Virus record (IMG/VR): IMGVR_UViG_2534682109_000010
DNA: 17,632 nucleotides
Source: a virus
Lineage: Duplodnaviria; Heunggongvirae; Uroviricota; Caudoviricetes
Reading direction: 5' to 3' (one strand)
Numbering within the stretch: the stretch's first letter is position 1; every line of letters starts with the position of its first letter. This document shows positions 9,001 to 15,000 of the stretch, in pieces. The position numbers are program-made.

Positions 9001-12000
9001 CGGTCGATGAGAGAGTATCCCCGCGCGAGAGCGAGAACGGCGTGAGAACGGGCAACACTGGCAGGAAGTTGGCGCTGACCAATACAGGGAATGTTTTGGG
9101 GTGCAGGCGGCACCGCCAAAGCGTTTCTGAGAAAGGACGGTATTGACTGCGTGTGATGTCGGGGGCTATATTTGGCGAACACCTTATAAAACGGGTGTCG
9201 GGATTAGGACCCCGCTGACAATCGAGGCGATACAGACGCGCCAGCGTCTTTTTTTGTATCGATATACACGCACATCTTATCAATGGTGGGCTGTATGGGG
9301 CCGACTTCGGTCGGGCTGGTTCCCTTGATTGCCAGTAGTCCTAACCCTGTACAGTCCACCGCCAGCGAGCTTAGGACCTCCTGCGGTGGTTCTCAATCAC
9401 CAATCAAGGAGGCTGCCATTATGGCTACTATCCCTGCCCTTTCTCAACCTGAAATCACCATTACCAATGGTCGCGTTGTCACAACGTCTATTGCTATTGC
9501 TGAATTTTTTGACAAGCGGCACGACGACGTTTTAAAAAAAATCCGATTGATGGATTGTTCTACGGAATTTAACGCCCGCAATTTTGCGGACGTTACCTAC
9601 ACCGACGCCAAAGGCGAACAACGCCCAATGTACCAAATCACCAAAAACGGATTCGTTTTTCTGGTGATGGGCTTCACCGGCAAAAAAGCAGCTGCATTCA
9701 AGGAAGCCTACATTGCTGAATTCGATCGCATGGAAAAACAACTATGGGAACAGAAACAACTGGCCCTGTCTTCTCCTGCGATGAATATCAATTTCCCTTT
9801 ATCGTGGTTTTCAGAGCATCACCCCTATGCCACGATGAACTATGTTGATAGAAATACATTGCAGCTTGATACCTCCGTCTTATTCGACATGCCAAGCCCT
9901 GCAATGCGCATATTTAATGAATTACGTCGTAACGGCTATAACGTCGATGCAGCTGTCGCCGAATTTAACGCCTTCAAGCATCTGACGGAAGAAATGCGCC
10001 GTAAATTGCTGGATATTTCCCGCACATCGGAAAAATCTTCCCGCTTTGGTTTCAACGTTAATCTTTAATTAACCCCATCCCCGATCACATATCGGGGATT
10101 AAATAAAATATCTGGATTAATTAACCGGAGGATTTGTCATGCTCAAACCTCACTACGGAACCGCATTAGTTTCTCGCGAGGACGTTAAACCCGGCACAGC
10201 AATTCTTTACAACGGGCGTTATTACATGGCGTCAGCGAACGTTAATAATGCACTTTACGCACATTCACTGATTGAAAAAATTCGCATTATCTCAGATGCA
10301 ATAGAAGTTTACCTGAACAATAAAGGCCAACCGTTAATCTCACCAGCCTGAAAGGAAATATCATGCTCAATCAAAAAATAAATATCAATGTAAAAAGCGT
10401 CGTAACTCCAGCAGGAACGATAATGGGAGAAGTTTTTATGGATGATAAAATCATCGCCTATTTTGTCATCCTGTCTGATGAGGCTATTTCTGTTATTGAT
10501 ACGGAAGGCAATGTTATGTTTATCGCGGAACATCCAGAAGACATCGCATTACAGGCCGCTGCATATTTCTTCGCTAAGGAGCAGGAGGAAGAATGTAACT
10601 GCCCTGTATGTCAGCTTTCCCGACAAATTAATTTAATGCATTAACCGGAATCAGGAGTTCCGCCATGAACGCATACCTCACCTGCGACCGCATAGAGGAG
10701 CGTCGCTGGATTAATCAGCAAATTCAGGATGAAAAGGATAAATGGATTGATGATCGGGCGCAGGAGCTTATCAGCATGTTCCCCGATAAACCATTGCTTA
10801 TGAGCAGCCTTTTTTTACCCAAAGAAGCCCAACTAGCACTCACTGGCGAAAAAGCTGAAGAGGCGTACAACGATTATATCTCAGCGATCGCCTATGCTCG
10901 GGCGGAAGAAGAATGGGAGAGAAAATTCTCCCCCTGTCCTTTCTGATTTTCAGGACCAAAAAATGTTCGATATCGTTGAATTTGTTAAGCAGCAGGAGCG
11001 CTTTTTCTGCGAGGCATTAACTGAACCGACGCTGACATGGGCGAAGGAAAGTCAGTTTGCAATTCAGCAATTCCAGAAAAATGCCTTTCTGGCTGACACA
11101 GCAAGGGCAAATCTGCCCAGCGCACAGAACGCTATCATCAATGTTGCCGCCATCGGCATAACCCTGAACCCGGCCAGCAAGCTGGCGTATCTGGTCCCAC
11201 GAAAAAAGGCTGTATGCCTGGATATCAGTTATATGGGGCTTCTGCATCTGGCACAGGTCACAGGAGCCATTCAGTGGGGGCAATGCAAACTTGTTTACGA
11301 GAAGGACATTTACGAGTCCAACGGTATTGACTGCGCCCCCACGCACAAATACAACCCCTTCGTAGACAGGGGCGCACGCATTGGCGGTTATTGTGTCGTA
11401 AAAACATCCGAAGGCGACTATCTGACCGAAGAGATGAGCAACAGGGAAATCGAGGTCATCAGGGCGTGCAGCAAAGCCGGAAATAACGGAGGAAGTAGCC
11501 CGTGGGATAGTTTCCCCGATGAAATGGCCAGAAAAGCCATTGTTAAGCGCGCCAGCAAATACTGGCCCCGTCGCGATCGCCTGGATACAGCTATCGACTA
11601 CCTGAACACTCAGGCCGGTGAAGGTATCATCCTGAATGCTGATCATATCCCTGAGCGTGACGTCACTCCCGCATCAGATGAGATTATCAATGAGATCACT
11701 CAGGCAATCACCGAAATTAACAAGACATGGGATGACCTGCTTCCCGTATGTTCCAAAACATTCCGTCGCACGATTGCATCACATGAAGCTCTCTCTCAGG
11801 AAGAAGCTGTCAAAACGCTTGATTTTGTCAAAAAGAAAGCTGCCAGAAACAAGGCCACGGCGGAAGCGAAAATTCACGCCACCACGGAAAATAACAGCGA
11901 GGCCGTGTCATGACACCAGAAATTATTCTCCAGCGAACTGGCGTGGATATTACCAGCCTCGACCAGGGCGATGATGGATGGCACAAGCTGAGACTCGGTG

Positions 12001-15000
12001 TTATCACTGCTTCAGAAGTTCACAATGTGATAGCAAAGCCACGTTCCGGCAGCAAATGGCCTGATACAAAAATGTCATACTTCCACACCCTGCTGGCTGA
12101 AGTTTGTACTGGCGTGGCACCGGAAGTTAACGCTAAGTCGCTCGCATGGGGAAAGCAATATGAAGATGATGCCCGTGCCCTCTTTGAATTTATCGCGGAT
12201 GTTACCGTCTCGGAAACACCCATAATTTTTCGTGACGAAAGCATGCGCACCGCCTGCTCTCCCGATGGTTTATGCAGTGACGGTAACGGTCTTGAGCTTA
12301 AATGCCCCTTTACTTCCCGCGACTTCATGAAGTTCCGGCTTGGCGGCTTTGACGCTATCAAGCCTGCTTACATGGCCCAGGTGCAATTCAGCATGTGGGT
12401 TACAGACAAGGACGCCTGGTACTTCGCCAACTACGACCCACGCATGAAGCGTGAAGGCCTGCATTATGTCGTGGTCGAGCGGGATGAAAAGTACATGGCG
12501 AGTTTTGATGAGATGGTGCCGGAGTTCATCGACAAAATGGACGAAGCACTGGCAGAAATTGGTTTTGTATTTGGAGAACAATGGGGGGTTAATAACTAAT
12601 GGATGAAGTGATTTTTACTTATAACGAAGAATCAGCACTGACCGCCGGACAAGGTGGTTTTATTACCGAAACGGGTGCGCATATCATTAACATCACCGAA
12701 GCAGAACTCAAGCAATCAGAAAAAGGTGCCCGATTCATTGAGTTTTCTGGAGAATCCGACGACGGACGGAAAATCCAATATCTCAGTGTTTGTGTTCAGA
12801 AGAATGACGGCACTGAAAATAAATTTGGGGCGAGCATTATTCACGCCATGATGGGATGCACAGGAATTGGGCAGTTAACGCAGCATATGGTTTCCGTCAG
12901 TAAATATGTTGCACCTGAGTTTCACGGAAAGAAAATCGGACTCGTCCTCCAGAAAGTATTAACCACAAACAGAAAGACTGGCGCAGACGGTTACCAGATG
13001 GAAATCCGCATTCCATTCATTGCAGAAACAGGGCAGACACTGAAAGAAAAAGCTGAAGGAAAGAAACCAGAAACTGTAGCAAATATGGTTTCCACTCTCA
13101 AAGACAAAGACAATCGCAGCAAAAACGTAAACCCGAATCACACGGACGCCCCAGGTTACTGGCAGTACGGCAGCGATAGTTTTTAATTCACAAACAAAAC
13201 CAGGCTTTAAATGCAGTAAACAACCGAAGCCTCAATACACTCTCTACACGGAGATATAAATATGAGTCAGCATCAGACAGATGTTAATATTTTCATTAAC
13301 GACCTCGACGGCGGGGTATTTGTTAACAAACTTGGCGCGGTATTAAGTGAAGTTGCCTTTGGCGTAAACAGCACAAACAAAAAAGGAAAGGTATGTGTTG
13401 AATTCGAATTATCTTCACTTGATGAAAATCGCGTATCAGTTTCCCATAAACTAAAATTCACACGCCCGACAATGCGTGGTAGTAAATCAGAAGAAGACAC
13501 AACTAACACCCCGATGTTTGTAAATAAAGGTGGTGAGCTTACTTTGTTCCAGAAAGACCAGGGACAGCTTTTCGATAAACAGGGTCAACATGACGCTGTT
13601 TTACGCTGAATAATCCCCGCCTTAAAACGCTCGCGCATTATCCCCAAATCCATAAATTAAAGGTAAATATACATGTCTCAGTTAGATAGCAATGCCATTA
13701 AAGAAATTGTAAAACTCACCACTACTGCTTTTTCTGGTGAAAATTTGCCGCTTACGGAATGCCCTGTTGCGTTATTGCCGGACAATGTAAATATCGAAAG
13801 TCTGGAACGATTCATGACAGAACGTTTTCGTTTCCGTGGAGTCATGACCACAACCAGTATTGATGACTTTGTTGAATACAGCAAAGGGTATGCCGATGAG
13901 CACTCCCGCTGCTTCATTAACGCGGAAACGATGAAAGCAGTCACTGTGTTCAATATCGGCACTCTGGAGCAACCTGGACACGCTGACAACAAGGCACTGC
14001 TGGAACTGAAAGCCACATCACCATATCGCGCATTGCGTGACGTTGACGGCAAAAAACAACTCCAGAAGTCTCTCGCTGAATGGCTGGAAGACTGGGCCGA
14101 CTTCCTCACAGCCTATGACAGCGACGGTAATGTGCTGGACATCAAACAGGCTATCTCTGCTGTCCGTCGTCTTACCATCGATGCAAAACGCAGTGCTGAA
14201 TATGAAGAGCAAAACTTCAGCGGTAGCCGCTCAGTCATGGAGTCCGTGGAGGCTAAAAGCAAAGAAATCATGCCTGCCACTTTCCGCTTTGAATGCATCC
14301 CATACGAGGGCCTGGGCAACAGGGAATTCACGCTGCGATTAAGCATTCTGACAAGCGAACAGCCTGTTCTGGTGCTACGTATCGTGCGTGTTGAAGCTGC
14401 GGAAGAAGAAATTGCCAAAGAGTTCCGTGACCTGCTGAAAGAGCGTTTCGAAGAAGAAGATATCTTAACCTTCATCGGCACGTTCTCAGTGTGATGAAAT
14501 CTGTGACAGGGACGTCACGACATATCGCTCATATTTCACGAGAAAATACACAGTTCTTGGAGGGTATACTATGCAATTTAAAGATTTACCAGAGGATATT
14601 CAGAAAATAGCTGCGGATACGCTTAAAGCCCATTTATCGGTGCTTGATTTAACAAAGGAACCAAAGGCGAATCTGGAAAATATATCCCGTAACGTGCGAG
14701 ATGTTTTTGTCGGGCTGTATGCTTATGACAATGAAAAGCACGAGGAACATATTCAAAATGGTTGCATTAATAAATTTCAACAAAATATCAAACTTCCTGT
14801 TGCTGATAAAACAGAGCAGAAAACAGATGTATTAGTATTCTGGAATACCGTTGAGGCTATCGCCAGGAGCACGATGTTGGAATTTAACAACATCAATCAT
14901 TCCGGGATCGACACTCATCAATCATCACATCGTGAGGGGTTTTCCATTCTTCTAACTCTGTTACAAGAGCAAGGCGAATATCCTCAGCCGACATCAAACG

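What the first reader, a model, noticed from the sequence alone, without database searches (positions are those of the whole stretch)
10963..12599. Mosaic recombination module: RecT-like annealase carrying a lambda Bet-type C-terminal tail, paired with lambda Exo
The annealase core looks RecT-like (SKAGNNG region and flanks), whereas its last 60 or so residues match the C-terminal tail of lambda Bet, the part known to contact Red-alpha exonuclease. The adjacent exonuclease is almost identical to lambda Exo rather than RecE. This looks like domain shuffling that preserved the tail-exonuclease interaction specificity, and it could be a useful recombineering pair.
Basis: partly seen in the sequence, partly recalled or inferred. 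Interest (0 to 1): 0.45.

Follow-up and report, generated by a model that had tools for sequence, protein, structure and literature searches.

The report
RecT-core annealase with Redβ tail
A Shiga-toxin-type phage encodes a DNA-annealing protein whose body is of the RecT type but whose tail is the lambda Bet domain that grips lambda exonuclease; that tail and the exonuclease gene are inherited and swapped together as one unit across many enterobacterial phages.

Summary
The 10963-11913 product (316 aa) has three parts:
- a RecT-subfamily core (aa 1-203). It passes NCBIfam TIGR00616, gives no hit to bet_lambda, and its best structural match is Listeria RecT 7ub2;
- a disordered linker (aa 204-231);
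- a three-helix C-terminal domain (aa 235-300) homologous to the Redβ CTD (E=1.7e-18; predicted rmsd 0.8 Å to 6m9k).

The adjacent 11910-12599 product is 88% identical to λ Exo, with the catalytic residues intact, and its start overlaps the annealase stop (ATGA).

The architecture is not unique to this window. It is present in φ80, many Stx phages and prophages of many Enterobacterales. In 160 related loci, Bet-type tails are followed by λ-Exo-type genes in 68 of 70 cases. Equally close cores with an unrelated tail pair with Sipho_Gp157 instead, never with Exo. Tail identity tracks Exo identity (r=0.91) and core identity does not (r=0.34). Residues on both sides of the known interface co-vary in four sets. 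DNA-level junctions fall at the core/tail boundary.

The module type is already catalogued (Genome Res 2025, TL-2011c and φ80). That paper suggested partner-domain shuffling but did not analyse it. Binding itself is inferred, not shown. Interest is moderate.

The parts
10665..10946 (+). gamL: phi80-type host RecBCD nuclease inhibitor, first gene of the recombination module
   Evidence: NCBIfam NF033500 phi80_GamL 149.8 bits, cutoff 40; phrog_1050; 74% identical to phi80 GamL
10963..11913 (+). Single-strand annealing protein, 316 aa, chimeric: RecT-type core + linker + Redβ-type CTD
10963..11571 (+). Annealase core domain (aa 1-203), RecT subfamily
   Evidence: Pfam PF03837 aa 31-204; TIGR00616 above cutoff and no bet_lambda hit; family profile hits LiRecT 7ub2, not Redβ 1-177; model pLDDT about 85 and best Foldseek hit 7ub2, E=1.3e-6
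11535..11570 (+). Mosaic junction zone, encoding the conserved KRASKYWP block at the end of the core
   Evidence: DNA identity to E. coli locus L083 jumps from 40-88% to 90-100% here and stays high to 12582. The same boundary is seen in protein alignment A1 and in other lineage pairs
11572..11655 (+). Flexible interdomain linker (aa 204-231)
   Evidence: pLDDT below 50 over residues 204-231 in the AlphaFold2 model; corresponds to the Redβ linker described in PMC6393309
11665..11862 (+). C-terminal three-helix domain (aa 235-300), homologous to the lambda Redβ CTD that binds lambda Exo and the SSB C-tail
   Evidence: phmmer vs PDB: 8tfu E=1.7e-18, 6m9k E=2.3e-14; helices 239-251, 256-266 and 279-314; Foldseek 6m9k rmsd 0.8 Å, target TM 0.91, 52% identity; pocket residues V262, T266, F288, V289, K292
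11863..11910 (+). 16-residue C-terminal extension ([16 protein letters not shown]) with no counterpart in lambda Bet or in most relatives
   Evidence: alignments; pLDDT 53-59
11910..12599 (+). Lambda Exo orthologue (5'-3' dsDNA exonuclease, YqaJ/PD-(D/E)XK). Its start overlaps the annealase stop (ATGA)
   Evidence: 88% identity to lambda Exo, E=4e-160; Pfam YqaJ 2.5e-28; R28, R45, L78, D119, E129, K131 conserved; ATGA overlap read
12156..12200 (+). Exo helix E region (aa 83-97), the surface that docks the CTD in 6m9k: Q83 D87 A90 L91 F94 I95
   Evidence: interface residues taken from PMC6393309 and mapped; differences from lambda Exo are enriched in residues 83-107 (9/25 vs 19/200, p=0.001)
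12599..13186 (+). SSB-2-type (HK620 HkaK-like) non-canonical ssDNA-binding protein, last gene of the module; its start overlaps the exo stop
   Evidence: phrog_743 1e-68; TL-2011c module listed as SAP-4 with SSB-2 in PMC12315714; no Pfam or PDB sequence hit

Best explanation
The locus is the Red-like recombination module (gamL, annealase, exo, SSB-2) of an Oslovirus-type Stx/lambdoid phage.

The annealase has two domains. A RecT-subfamily N-terminal core binds and anneals ssDNA. A flexible linker connects it to a three-helix C-terminal domain that is a true homologue of the lambda Redβ CTD.

By homology with crystal structure 6m9k, this CTD is inferred to clamp helix E of each subunit of the lambda-Exo-type trimer encoded by the next, translationally coupled gene. 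[quoted passage not shown] By homology with 8tfu, the same pocket probably then binds the host SSB C-terminal tail.

In evolutionary terms, the CTD and exo form one co-inherited, co-adapted cassette. It has been joined to at least three annealase cores (two RecT subtypes and the Bet core) by recombination at the conserved KRASKYWP/linker boundary. This is how a RecT-type annealase can work with a lambda-type exonuclease, even though Rac RecT cannot.

Shown here: the architecture, the homology, the co-occurrence, the co-variation and the junctions. Inferred: physical binding, loading and SSB hand-off.
For: Architecture:
- RecT core, not Bet.
- CTD homologous to the Redβ CTD and superposing on 6m9k at 0.8 Å in a confident model, with a disordered linker at 204-231.

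Partner:
- Exo is 88% identical to lambda Exo with catalytic and DNA-handling residues intact.
- The genes overlap by ATGA.

Co-occurrence:
- Genome loci: 26 Bet-type tails, 25 followed immediately by a lambda-Exo-type gene.
- About 17 loci have 69-73% identical cores but an unrelated tail, and none has Exo; most have Sipho_Gp157.
- Viral contigs: 43 of 44 Bet-type tails with Exo, 33 of 34 class 3 tails with Gp157.

Co-variation:
- Tail vs Exo identity r=0.91 (Mantel p=5e-4); core vs Exo r=0.34.
- Against lambda references, Spearman 0.92-0.94 for tail-Exo and -0.02 for core-Exo.
- Morganella L005/L037: core 49%, tail 78%, Exo 98%.

Interface:
- Residues defined experimentally in PMC6393309 fall into four matched sets on both partners, independent of core type.
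- Exo F94 is invariant, and CTD position 253 is Lys or Arg in every pair.
- The window pair has unique changes on both sides: Exo T90A and T95I; CTD L223V, I227T and L250V.
- Exo differences from lambda cluster at residues 83-107 (p=0.001).

Junctions:
- DNA-level break at about 11545 against L083, and at the same boundary in three other pairs.
- Class 3 tails are not homologous to the CTD (hhalign probability 0.9%).

Function of a sister protein: phi80 RecT (same architecture) promotes recombination in vivo (PMC3945230).
Against: - No binding, structural or genetic experiment exists for this pair. The complex could not be modelled with the tools available.
- The tail and exo are adjacent DNA, so co-inheritance could come from linkage alone. 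Lineage-specific residues on both sides could be drift in linked genes, and the loci are phylogenetically non-independent.
- Two of the four hydrophobic pocket positions are altered. I227T is non-conservative, so binding could be weaker or differently specific.
- The window tail is more diverged from Bet (about 52%) than expected for an Exo that is 88% identical to lambda Exo; other pairs with about 85% Exo identity have 59-75% tail identity.
- DNA similarity to Bet-core phages begins exactly at the exo start. A second junction at the gene boundary is therefore not excluded.
Confidence: 0.8

Rival explanations
1. The protein is simply a lambda Bet orthologue over its whole length. Some database records annotate it this way.
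For: Several phage records label the identical protein 'Bet'. Bet and RecT share Pfam family PF03837. phrog_252 (Bet-like) gives a weak hit, E=4e-5.
Against: There is no hit to TIGR01913 bet_lambda, while TIGR00616 rect is passed. BLASTP against Bet aligns only from residue 178 onward. The phrog_252 hit covers only aa 169-289. The family profile and the predicted structure match LiRecT 7ub2, not Redβ 1-177.
Confidence: 0.02
2. The tail-exo association reflects only physical linkage of adjacent DNA. The CTD is maintained for binding host SSB or for another function, and it has no co-adapted, specific contact with this Exo.
For: The CTD coding region abuts exo, so any block transfer carries both. 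The Redβ CTD does bind the SSB C-tail through the same pocket (8tfu; PMC6393309). CTD mutations in lambda also affect ssDNA recombination, which needs no Exo.
Against: Junctions recur inside the annealase gene at the domain boundary rather than at the annealase/exo gene boundary, where a neutral mosaic junction would do the least harm. Pocket residues vary in step with Exo helix E residues, although the SSB C-tail of enterobacterial hosts is essentially invariant (my background knowledge, not tested here). Bet-type tails are essentially never found without a lambda-type Exo (68 of 70). In lambda, the homologous contact is required for complex formation and for dsDNA recombination.
Confidence: 0.12
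3. There was no shuffling. All these proteins descend vertically from a two-domain ancestor, and the tail simply evolves faster than the core.
For: The CTD is always less conserved than the core or Exo. Both RecT core subtypes and Bet carry it.
Against: There are abrupt DNA-level identity switches at the boundary. Pairs exist with nearly identical Exo and tail but 49% identical cores, and the reverse also occurs. Cores about 72% identical to the window's carry a non-homologous tail.
Confidence: 0.04

Closest known systems
Phage lambda Red system (Gam / Redβ (Bet) / Redα (Exo)); CTD-Exo complex PDB 6m9k
   Same: Same gene order, and bet/exo are translationally coupled. Exo is 88% identical with identical catalytic residues. 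The annealase CTD is homologous (about 52% identity, same three-helix fold), with F249, K253 and R229 equivalents conserved. The presumed loading mechanism is the same.
   Different: The annealing core belongs to the RecT subfamily, not the Bet subfamily. Gam is replaced by the unrelated-sequence GamL. An SSB-2 gene is appended. Interface residues are recoded on both partners (CTD V/T/F/V against L/I/F/L; Exo A90 and I95 against T90 and T95). The annealase has a 16-residue C-terminal extension.
Phage phi80 recombination module (gamL / rec 'RecTphi80' / exo) and TL-2011c-type Stx phage modules, catalogued as 'SAP sequence type 4' with Exo in Genome Res 2025 (PMC12315714)
   Same: TL-2011c is 99.2% identical in DNA to this module. 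phi80 has the same architecture: a RecT-type core, a Bet-type CTD (76% identical to the lambda CTD), an Exo 85% identical to lambda Exo, and GamL 74% identical to the window's. RecTphi80 is active in vivo (PMC3945230).
   Different: The phi80 core is a different RecT subtype (53% identical to the window core), keeps lambda-like interface residues, and lacks SSB-2. The published work classified SAPs by their annealing domain only. It stated that analysis of partner-interaction-domain shuffling was beyond its scope.
Rac prophage RecE/RecT
   Same: The core domain family is the same: TIGR00616, 33% identity, shared SKAGNNG motif.
   Different: Rac RecT has only a short C-terminal tail and no Redβ-type CTD. 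It pairs with RecE, does not bind lambda Exo, and does not cooperate with it (Muyrers 2000, as cited in PMC5052646 and PMC11611040).
HK140-type modules (same SAP-4 core with a Sipho_Gp157 / 'Mu Gam-like' neighbour, no nuclease)
   Same: The core is 70-74% identical to the window core up to the KYWP block.
   Different: The roughly 96-residue tail is not homologous to the Redβ CTD. The downstream gene is Gp157, not Exo.

Membership tests
RecT subfamily of the RecT/Redβ SSAP family (Pfam PF03837; NCBIfam TIGR00616) | Sequence passes the curated subfamily model | tested here: met
   PF03837 86.9 bits (cutoff 24). TIGR00616 65.8 bits (cutoff 52.65). It does not reach the RecT equivalog NF007351 cutoff (71.8 vs 296), so it is not an orthologue of Rac RecT.
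RecT subfamily of the RecT/Redβ SSAP family | Core fold resembles a solved RecT structure rather than Redβ 1-177 | tested here: met
   The best Foldseek hit of the AF2 model is 7ub2 LiRecT (E=1.3e-6, target TM 0.57). No Redβ 1-177 entry appears among the listed hits. The family profile hits 7ub2 at E=0.0025.
RecT subfamily of the RecT/Redβ SSAP family | ATP-independent ssDNA annealing activity | not testable with these tools
   Needs biochemistry. The phi80 protein with the same architecture promotes recombination in vivo (PMC3945230).
Lambda Bet (NCBIfam TIGR01913 bet_lambda equivalog) | N-terminal annealing domain matches the Bet model | tested here: not met
   No hit at E<=0.01, whereas lambda Bet scores 169.5 bits. 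BLASTP shows no alignment N-terminal of residue 178.
Redβ C-terminal domain (PDB 6m9k, 8tfu) | Significant sequence homology to the CTD | tested here: met
   E=1.7e-18 (8tfu) and 2.3e-14 (6m9k) against all PDB sequences; 52% identity.
Redβ C-terminal domain (PDB 6m9k, 8tfu) | Three-helix bundle attached through a flexible linker | tested here: met
   AF2 model: helices 239-251, 256-266 and 279-314, pLDDT about 88, linker 204-231 below 50. rmsd 0.7-0.9 Å and target TM 0.87-0.94 to the CTD chains. This is a prediction, not an experiment.
Redβ C-terminal domain (PDB 6m9k, 8tfu) | Hydrophobic pocket L223/I227/F249/L250 and capping K253 | tested here: inconclusive
   The equivalents are V262, T266, F288, V289 and K292. 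F and K are conserved and two changes are conservative, but I227T is not.
Redβ C-terminal domain (PDB 6m9k, 8tfu) | Binds lambda-type Exo and the SSB C-terminal peptide | not testable with these tools
   Only a single-chain predictor is available. Indirect support comes from co-occurrence and interface co-variation.
Lambda exonuclease family (Pfam YqaJ PF09588; PD-(D/E)XK) | Family model plus the catalytic D119/E129/K131 and DNA-handling R28/R45/L78 | tested here: met
   PF09588 99.7 bits; 88% identity to lambda Exo; all six residues identical. The TIGR03033 domain model is below its cutoff (54.5 vs 68.05). Lambda Exo itself was not run against that model.
Two-component (SynExo / EATR) recombinase | Adjacent, co-oriented, co-expressed exonuclease and annealase genes | tested here: met
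   4-base ATGA overlap. The arrangement is conserved in 68 of 70 related loci with this tail type.
Two-component (SynExo / EATR) recombinase | Specific physical complex required for dsDNA recombination | not testable with these tools
   Inferred from homology to 6m9k and from the mutational data of PMC6393309.

The most novel reading that the evidence does not exclude
The CTD-Exo cassette exists in several discrete, co-evolved interface 'codes'. At least four are seen here: CTD L/I/F/L with Exo T-L-F-T; V/T/F/V with A-L-F-I; F/K/M/L with M-T-F-Y; A/L/S/M with L-L-F-E. These codes could be mutually orthogonal. The recoded pair in this Stx phage, with its Ile/Thr exchange across the interface, would then be insulated from the canonical Bet/Exo pairs of co-resident lambdoid prophages in polylysogenic STEC. 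Any annealase core could be re-targeted to any exonuclease class simply by swapping the 70-residue CTD.
Probability: 0.25. Interest if true: 0.6.

Novelty: new variant of a known kind. Interest (0 to 1): 0.42.

Why it matters
It answers a question that structural reviews left open. PMC11611040 says it is unknown whether RecT-type annealases use a Redβ-like CTD to bind their partners, and PMC6393309 reported no homologues of the CTD. At least two RecT core subtypes carry a bona fide Redβ CTD, and they do so exactly when the neighbouring nuclease is of the lambda-Exo type.

It also supplies the analysis that the 2025 lambdoid Rec-module survey explicitly deferred.

The natural chimeras form a ready-made panel: four interface classes on three cores, plus a same-core control carrying a different tail. 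The panel can be used to dissect the specificity of exonuclease-annealase coupling and to design portable recombineering pairs by CTD swapping.

The significance is incremental. The genes are common (143 of 5,426 complete E. coli genomes), they are already annotated, and the mechanism is borrowed from lambda.

Tried and rejected
- Indexed protein search with the tail alone returned only six fragments and was uninformative.
- Exhaustive HMMER search of 1.8 billion representatives with the 92-residue tail found only 20 hits, mostly fragments. At single-sequence sensitivity the CTD is narrowly distributed, and the output could not classify the cores.
- blastn of the tail against lambda, even with 7-base words or in 'distant' mode against all phages, found no DNA similarity upstream of the exo start. 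The tail is therefore not a recent acquisition from a Bet-core phage.
- I asked whether the class 3 tail is a very diverged CTD. hhalign gave probability 0.9%, so I rejected this.
- I looked for the 6m9k contact table to confirm a direct Exo T95 to Bet I227 contact. No supplement is held, so the Ile/Thr 'swap' remains an inference from the main text.
- The phi80 genome paper (PMC3510586) and the Iyer/Koonin/Aravind 2002 classification (PMC101383) are not held. I cannot exclude that they noted the chimeric architecture.
- Other literature searches found no explicit description.
- A complex could not be predicted. The tool takes one chain, and the two genes are in different frames, so no in-window fusion can be submitted.
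- I did not locate the RecE-paired SAP-4 example (Edno5) cited in PMC12315714.

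
Full report
**What is there**

The window is the early-left region of a lambdoid, short-tailed Stx-type phage. Coordinates 10363-13186 are 99.9% identical to Shigella phage Ss-VASD (Sepvirinae, Oslovirus). They are about 99.3% identical to dozens of Stx2a-converting phages, including TL-2011c and the O104:H4 phage P13374.

The genes on the + strand around the finding are:
- a Rha-type regulator at 9283/9421-10068;
- a kil-like ORF at 10139-10351;
- gamL at 10665-10946 (NCBIfam phi80_GamL);
- the annealase at 10963-11913;
- exo at 11910-12599;
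- an SSB-2-type ssDNA-binding protein at 12599-13186 (phrog_743);
- then DUF2303 and further genes.

The annealase start at 10963 is the one used by all homologues. It follows an AGGA motif. Its stop overlaps the exo start as ATGA, the same arrangement as lambda bet/exo.

**Checking the observation**

The core of the 316-residue protein is RecT-type:
- Pfam RecT, E=1.7e-24 over aa 31-204.
- NCBIfam TIGR00616 'rect' is above its curated cutoff.
- There is no hit to TIGR01913 'bet_lambda'. Lambda Bet run as a control hits only bet_lambda, and Rac RecT hits rect.
- BLASTP against lambda Bet aligns only aa 178-300.

The tail is Bet-type. Against all PDB sequences the only significant hits are the Redβ C-terminal domain chains 8tfu (E=1.7e-18) and 6m9k (E=2.3e-14), over aa 225-299.

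A family profile adds a hit to Listeria-phage RecT 7ub2 through the core, and none to Redβ 1-177.

An AlphaFold2 model (mean pLDDT 78.6) shows two confident domains, residues 1-203 and 235-300. They are joined by a linker at 204-231 with pLDDT below 50, and the C-terminal domain is a three-helix bundle. In Foldseek the core is closest to 7ub2 (E=1.3e-6). The CTD superposes on the Redβ CTD of the lambda Exo complex at 0.8 Å, with target TM 0.91 and 52% identity.

Exo is 88% identical to lambda Exo (E=4e-160). R28, R45, L78, D119, E129 and K131 are all conserved.

The homologous tail is about 75 residues followed by a 16-residue extension. 'Almost identical' means 88% in protein and 82% in DNA.

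**Is it a one-off mosaic?**

No. The family is large: 5,531 hits. Among the top 120 homologues the core is almost uniformly 65-77% identical to the window's. The tail, in contrast, ranges from 98% identity down to about 30%, and in a large group no similarity is detectable.

The alignment shows a sharp boundary right after the conserved KRASKYWPRRxRLDxAIxYxNTxxGEG block.

I fetched 80 loci from species-representative genomes and 80 from viral contigs. I then extracted the annealase and the gene immediately downstream from each.

- Bet-type tails: 26 genomic loci, 25 followed by a lambda-Exo-type gene (50-90% identical to lambda Exo). 44 viral loci, 43 followed by one.
- 'Class 3' tails: about 17 genomic and 34 viral loci have cores 69-74% identical to the window core but a roughly 96-residue tail of a different kind. 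None is followed by a lambda-type Exo. Their neighbour is a Sipho_Gp157 protein (Pfam E=1.5e-39), annotated 'Mu Gam-like' in phage HK140. In two loci an HNH gene occupies that position.
- Class 3 tails are not detectably homologous to the CTD (hhalign probability 0.9%).

A second RecT core subtype, 45-55% identical to the window core, also passes TIGR00616. It carries the same CTD-plus-Exo combination. It includes the classic phage phi80: tail 76% identical to the lambda CTD, Exo 85% identical to lambda Exo, GamL 74% identical to the window's, and no similarity to the Bet core.

The CTD/Exo pair is therefore found on at least three cores: two RecT subtypes and Bet.

**Co-inheritance and co-variation**

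Against the lambda references, tail identity and Exo identity correlate at Spearman 0.92-0.94. Core identity against Exo identity gives -0.02 (25 loci).

All-against-all (26 modules, 325 pairs):
- tail vs Exo: r=0.91, Mantel p=5e-4;
- core vs Exo: r=0.34.

Examples:
- Two Morganella prophages: cores 49%, tails 78%, Exos 98% identical.
- L005 vs L006: cores 80%, tails 32%, Exos 47% identical.

At the DNA level, an E. coli prophage (L083, encoding P0009) is 40-88% identical to the window from 10963 to about 11530. It is then 90-100% identical from about 11545 through the end of exo. The crossover lies in the KRASKYWP-coding block, so the tail and exo moved as a unit. Breaks at the same boundary appear in L004/L006, L024/L022 and L005/L037.

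**The interface**

Caldwell et al. (PMC6393309) define the contact as follows:
- The Exo helix E ridge T90/L91/F94/T95 inserts into a CTD pocket formed by L223/I227/F249/L250.
- K253 caps the helix.
- L91, F94, L223 and F249 are each essential for complex formation.

Mapping these positions across the natural pairs gives four matched sets, independent of core type:

| Group | CTD 223/227/249/250 | Exo 90/91/94/95 |
|---|---|---|
| lambda-like | L/I/F/L | T/L/F/T |
| this window | V/T/F/V | A/L/F/I |
| Morganella, Proteus, Xenorhabdus | F/K/M/L | M/T/F/Y |
| Yersinia, Serratia | A/L(M)/S/M(L) | L(M)/L/F/E |

Exo F94 is invariant. CTD position 253 is Lys or Arg in every pair.

The window pair is unique on both sides, with an apparent Ile/Thr exchange (Exo T95I, CTD I227T). 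Its 28 differences from lambda Exo are enriched in residues 83-107: 9 of 25 positions against 19 of 200 elsewhere, p=0.001.

That both sides are unusual argues that this tail and this Exo have evolved together, not that they were recently re-paired. Direct contact between positions 95 and 227 could not be verified, because no supplement is held.

**Mechanism**

By homology with 6m9k, the CTD docks on helix E of each Exo subunit, on the face from which the 3' overhang emerges. The flexible linker lets the RecT-type core load on the nascent ssDNA. By homology with 8tfu, the same pocket would later bind the host SSB C-tail to target the replication fork.

These steps are inferred. The architecture, the pairing rule, the co-variation and the junctions are shown.

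The main caveat is that the tail and exo are adjacent DNA, so linkage alone produces co-inheritance. Three points argue against a linkage-only reading:
- Junctions recur inside the annealase gene rather than at the gene boundary.
- Pocket residues vary in concert with helix E, although the host SSB tail is essentially constant among these hosts (my background knowledge, not tested here).
- In lambda, the homologous contact has been shown to be required for complex formation.

A residual oddity remains. The window tail is only about 52% identical to the lambda CTD, although its Exo is 88% identical to lambda Exo. DNA similarity to every Bet-core phage starts exactly at the exo start. An additional old junction at the gene boundary cannot be excluded.

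**What is known**

The module is common. 143 of 5,426 complete E. coli genomes carry it at 95% identity or more, annotated 'RecT family recombinase | lambda exonuclease family protein'. About 3,300 genomes carry the canonical bet/exo pair. Phage records call the same protein 'Bet', 'RecT' or 'recombinase'.

The 2025 survey of lambdoid Rec modules (PMC12315714) lists TL-2011c and phi80 as 'SAP sequence type 4' with Exo, and HK140 as SAP-4 with MuGam and no nuclease. [quoted passage not shown] It also says that whether RecT-type annealases use a similar CTD 'is unknown' (PMC11611040).

De Paepe et al. showed that RecTphi80 is active in vivo, without commenting on its domains (PMC3945230).

I found no explicit description of the chimera. 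Two older papers that might contain one are not held.

**Verdict**

The module is a natural RecT-core/Redβ-CTD chimera coupled to a lambda Exo orthologue. It is one instance of a widespread rule that the CTD and exo travel and co-evolve as a cassette.

It is a variant of a well-understood system, already catalogued at the gene level and partly anticipated in print, so interest is moderate. Its value lies in providing natural specificity classes for testing exonuclease-annealase coupling and for engineering recombineering pairs.

Noticed in passing
window 6246-7715 and 7712-8665 (next to repressor 5438-6151): A restriction-modification pair sits inside the phage early region, directly downstream of the cI-like S24/HTH repressor: an Eco57I-type methylase (Pfam E=3e-9) and a BsuBI/PstI-type endonuclease (E=5e-61). 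Ss-VASD annotates the same two genes.
   Followed up: partly
window 12599-13186: An SSB-2-type (HK620 HkaK-like) non-canonical ssDNA-binding protein starts on the last base of the exo stop codon. It has no Pfam or PDB sequence hit and ends in ...GYWQYGSDSF. I did not examine whether this aromatic C-terminus could occupy the CTD pocket that binds the SSB C-tail in 8tfu.
   Followed up: partly
L010:4941-6367, L086 (HK140) 2501-3878, and about 50 other loci: Annealases with the same core but an unrelated tail of about 96 residues are almost always followed by a Sipho_Gp157 / 'Mu Gam-like' protein and have no exonuclease. The function of that alternative tail, and whether it binds Gp157, is unknown.
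   Followed up: partly
L008 and L009 (whole loci, about 1.9 kb contigs): Contigs labelled Micromonospora sp. and Streptomyces sp. carry an enterobacterial-type RecT (71% identical core) plus Gp157. This is most likely contamination in those actinomycete assemblies.
   Followed up: no
L007:5887-6354 and L134 (downstream of the annealase): An HNH endonuclease gene (Pfam HNH_3, E=1e-22 for L007) sits right after a class 3 annealase, where Gp157 normally is. It looks like a mobile HNH insertion. The L134 ORF (155 aa) was judged by size only.
   Followed up: no
window 11443-11532 (annealase aa 161-190): The window core has SKAGNNGGSS here, sharing SKAGNNG with Rac RecT, whereas nearly all close relatives have SKAKNGPW. 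This is also the most divergent DNA stretch against L083 (40-48%). It could be a small separate patch of exchange within the core.
   Followed up: no
window about 10068-10139 compared with L085 8032-8706: Ss-VASD has a 675-bp anti-repressor gene (about 930 bp of extra DNA) between the Rha-like regulator and kil, and the window lacks it. The window is therefore a close relative of Ss-VASD, not the same phage. E. coli 2013C-3181 matches the module at 100%.
   Followed up: no
L123 and L106: These are exceptions to the pairing rule. L123 has a Bet-type tail followed by a 206-aa ORF that did not match lambda Exo. L106 has an annealase truncated just after the core, probably by a frameshift. Neither was examined further.
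   Followed up: no
phage records listed: The identical protein is annotated 'Bet', 'phage DNA recombination protein Bet', 'RecT', 'recombinase' or 'RecT-like ssDNA annealing protein' in different records. RefSeq also labels lambda Bet itself 'RecT-like'. Database names therefore cannot be used to tell the two core types apart.
   Followed up: yes
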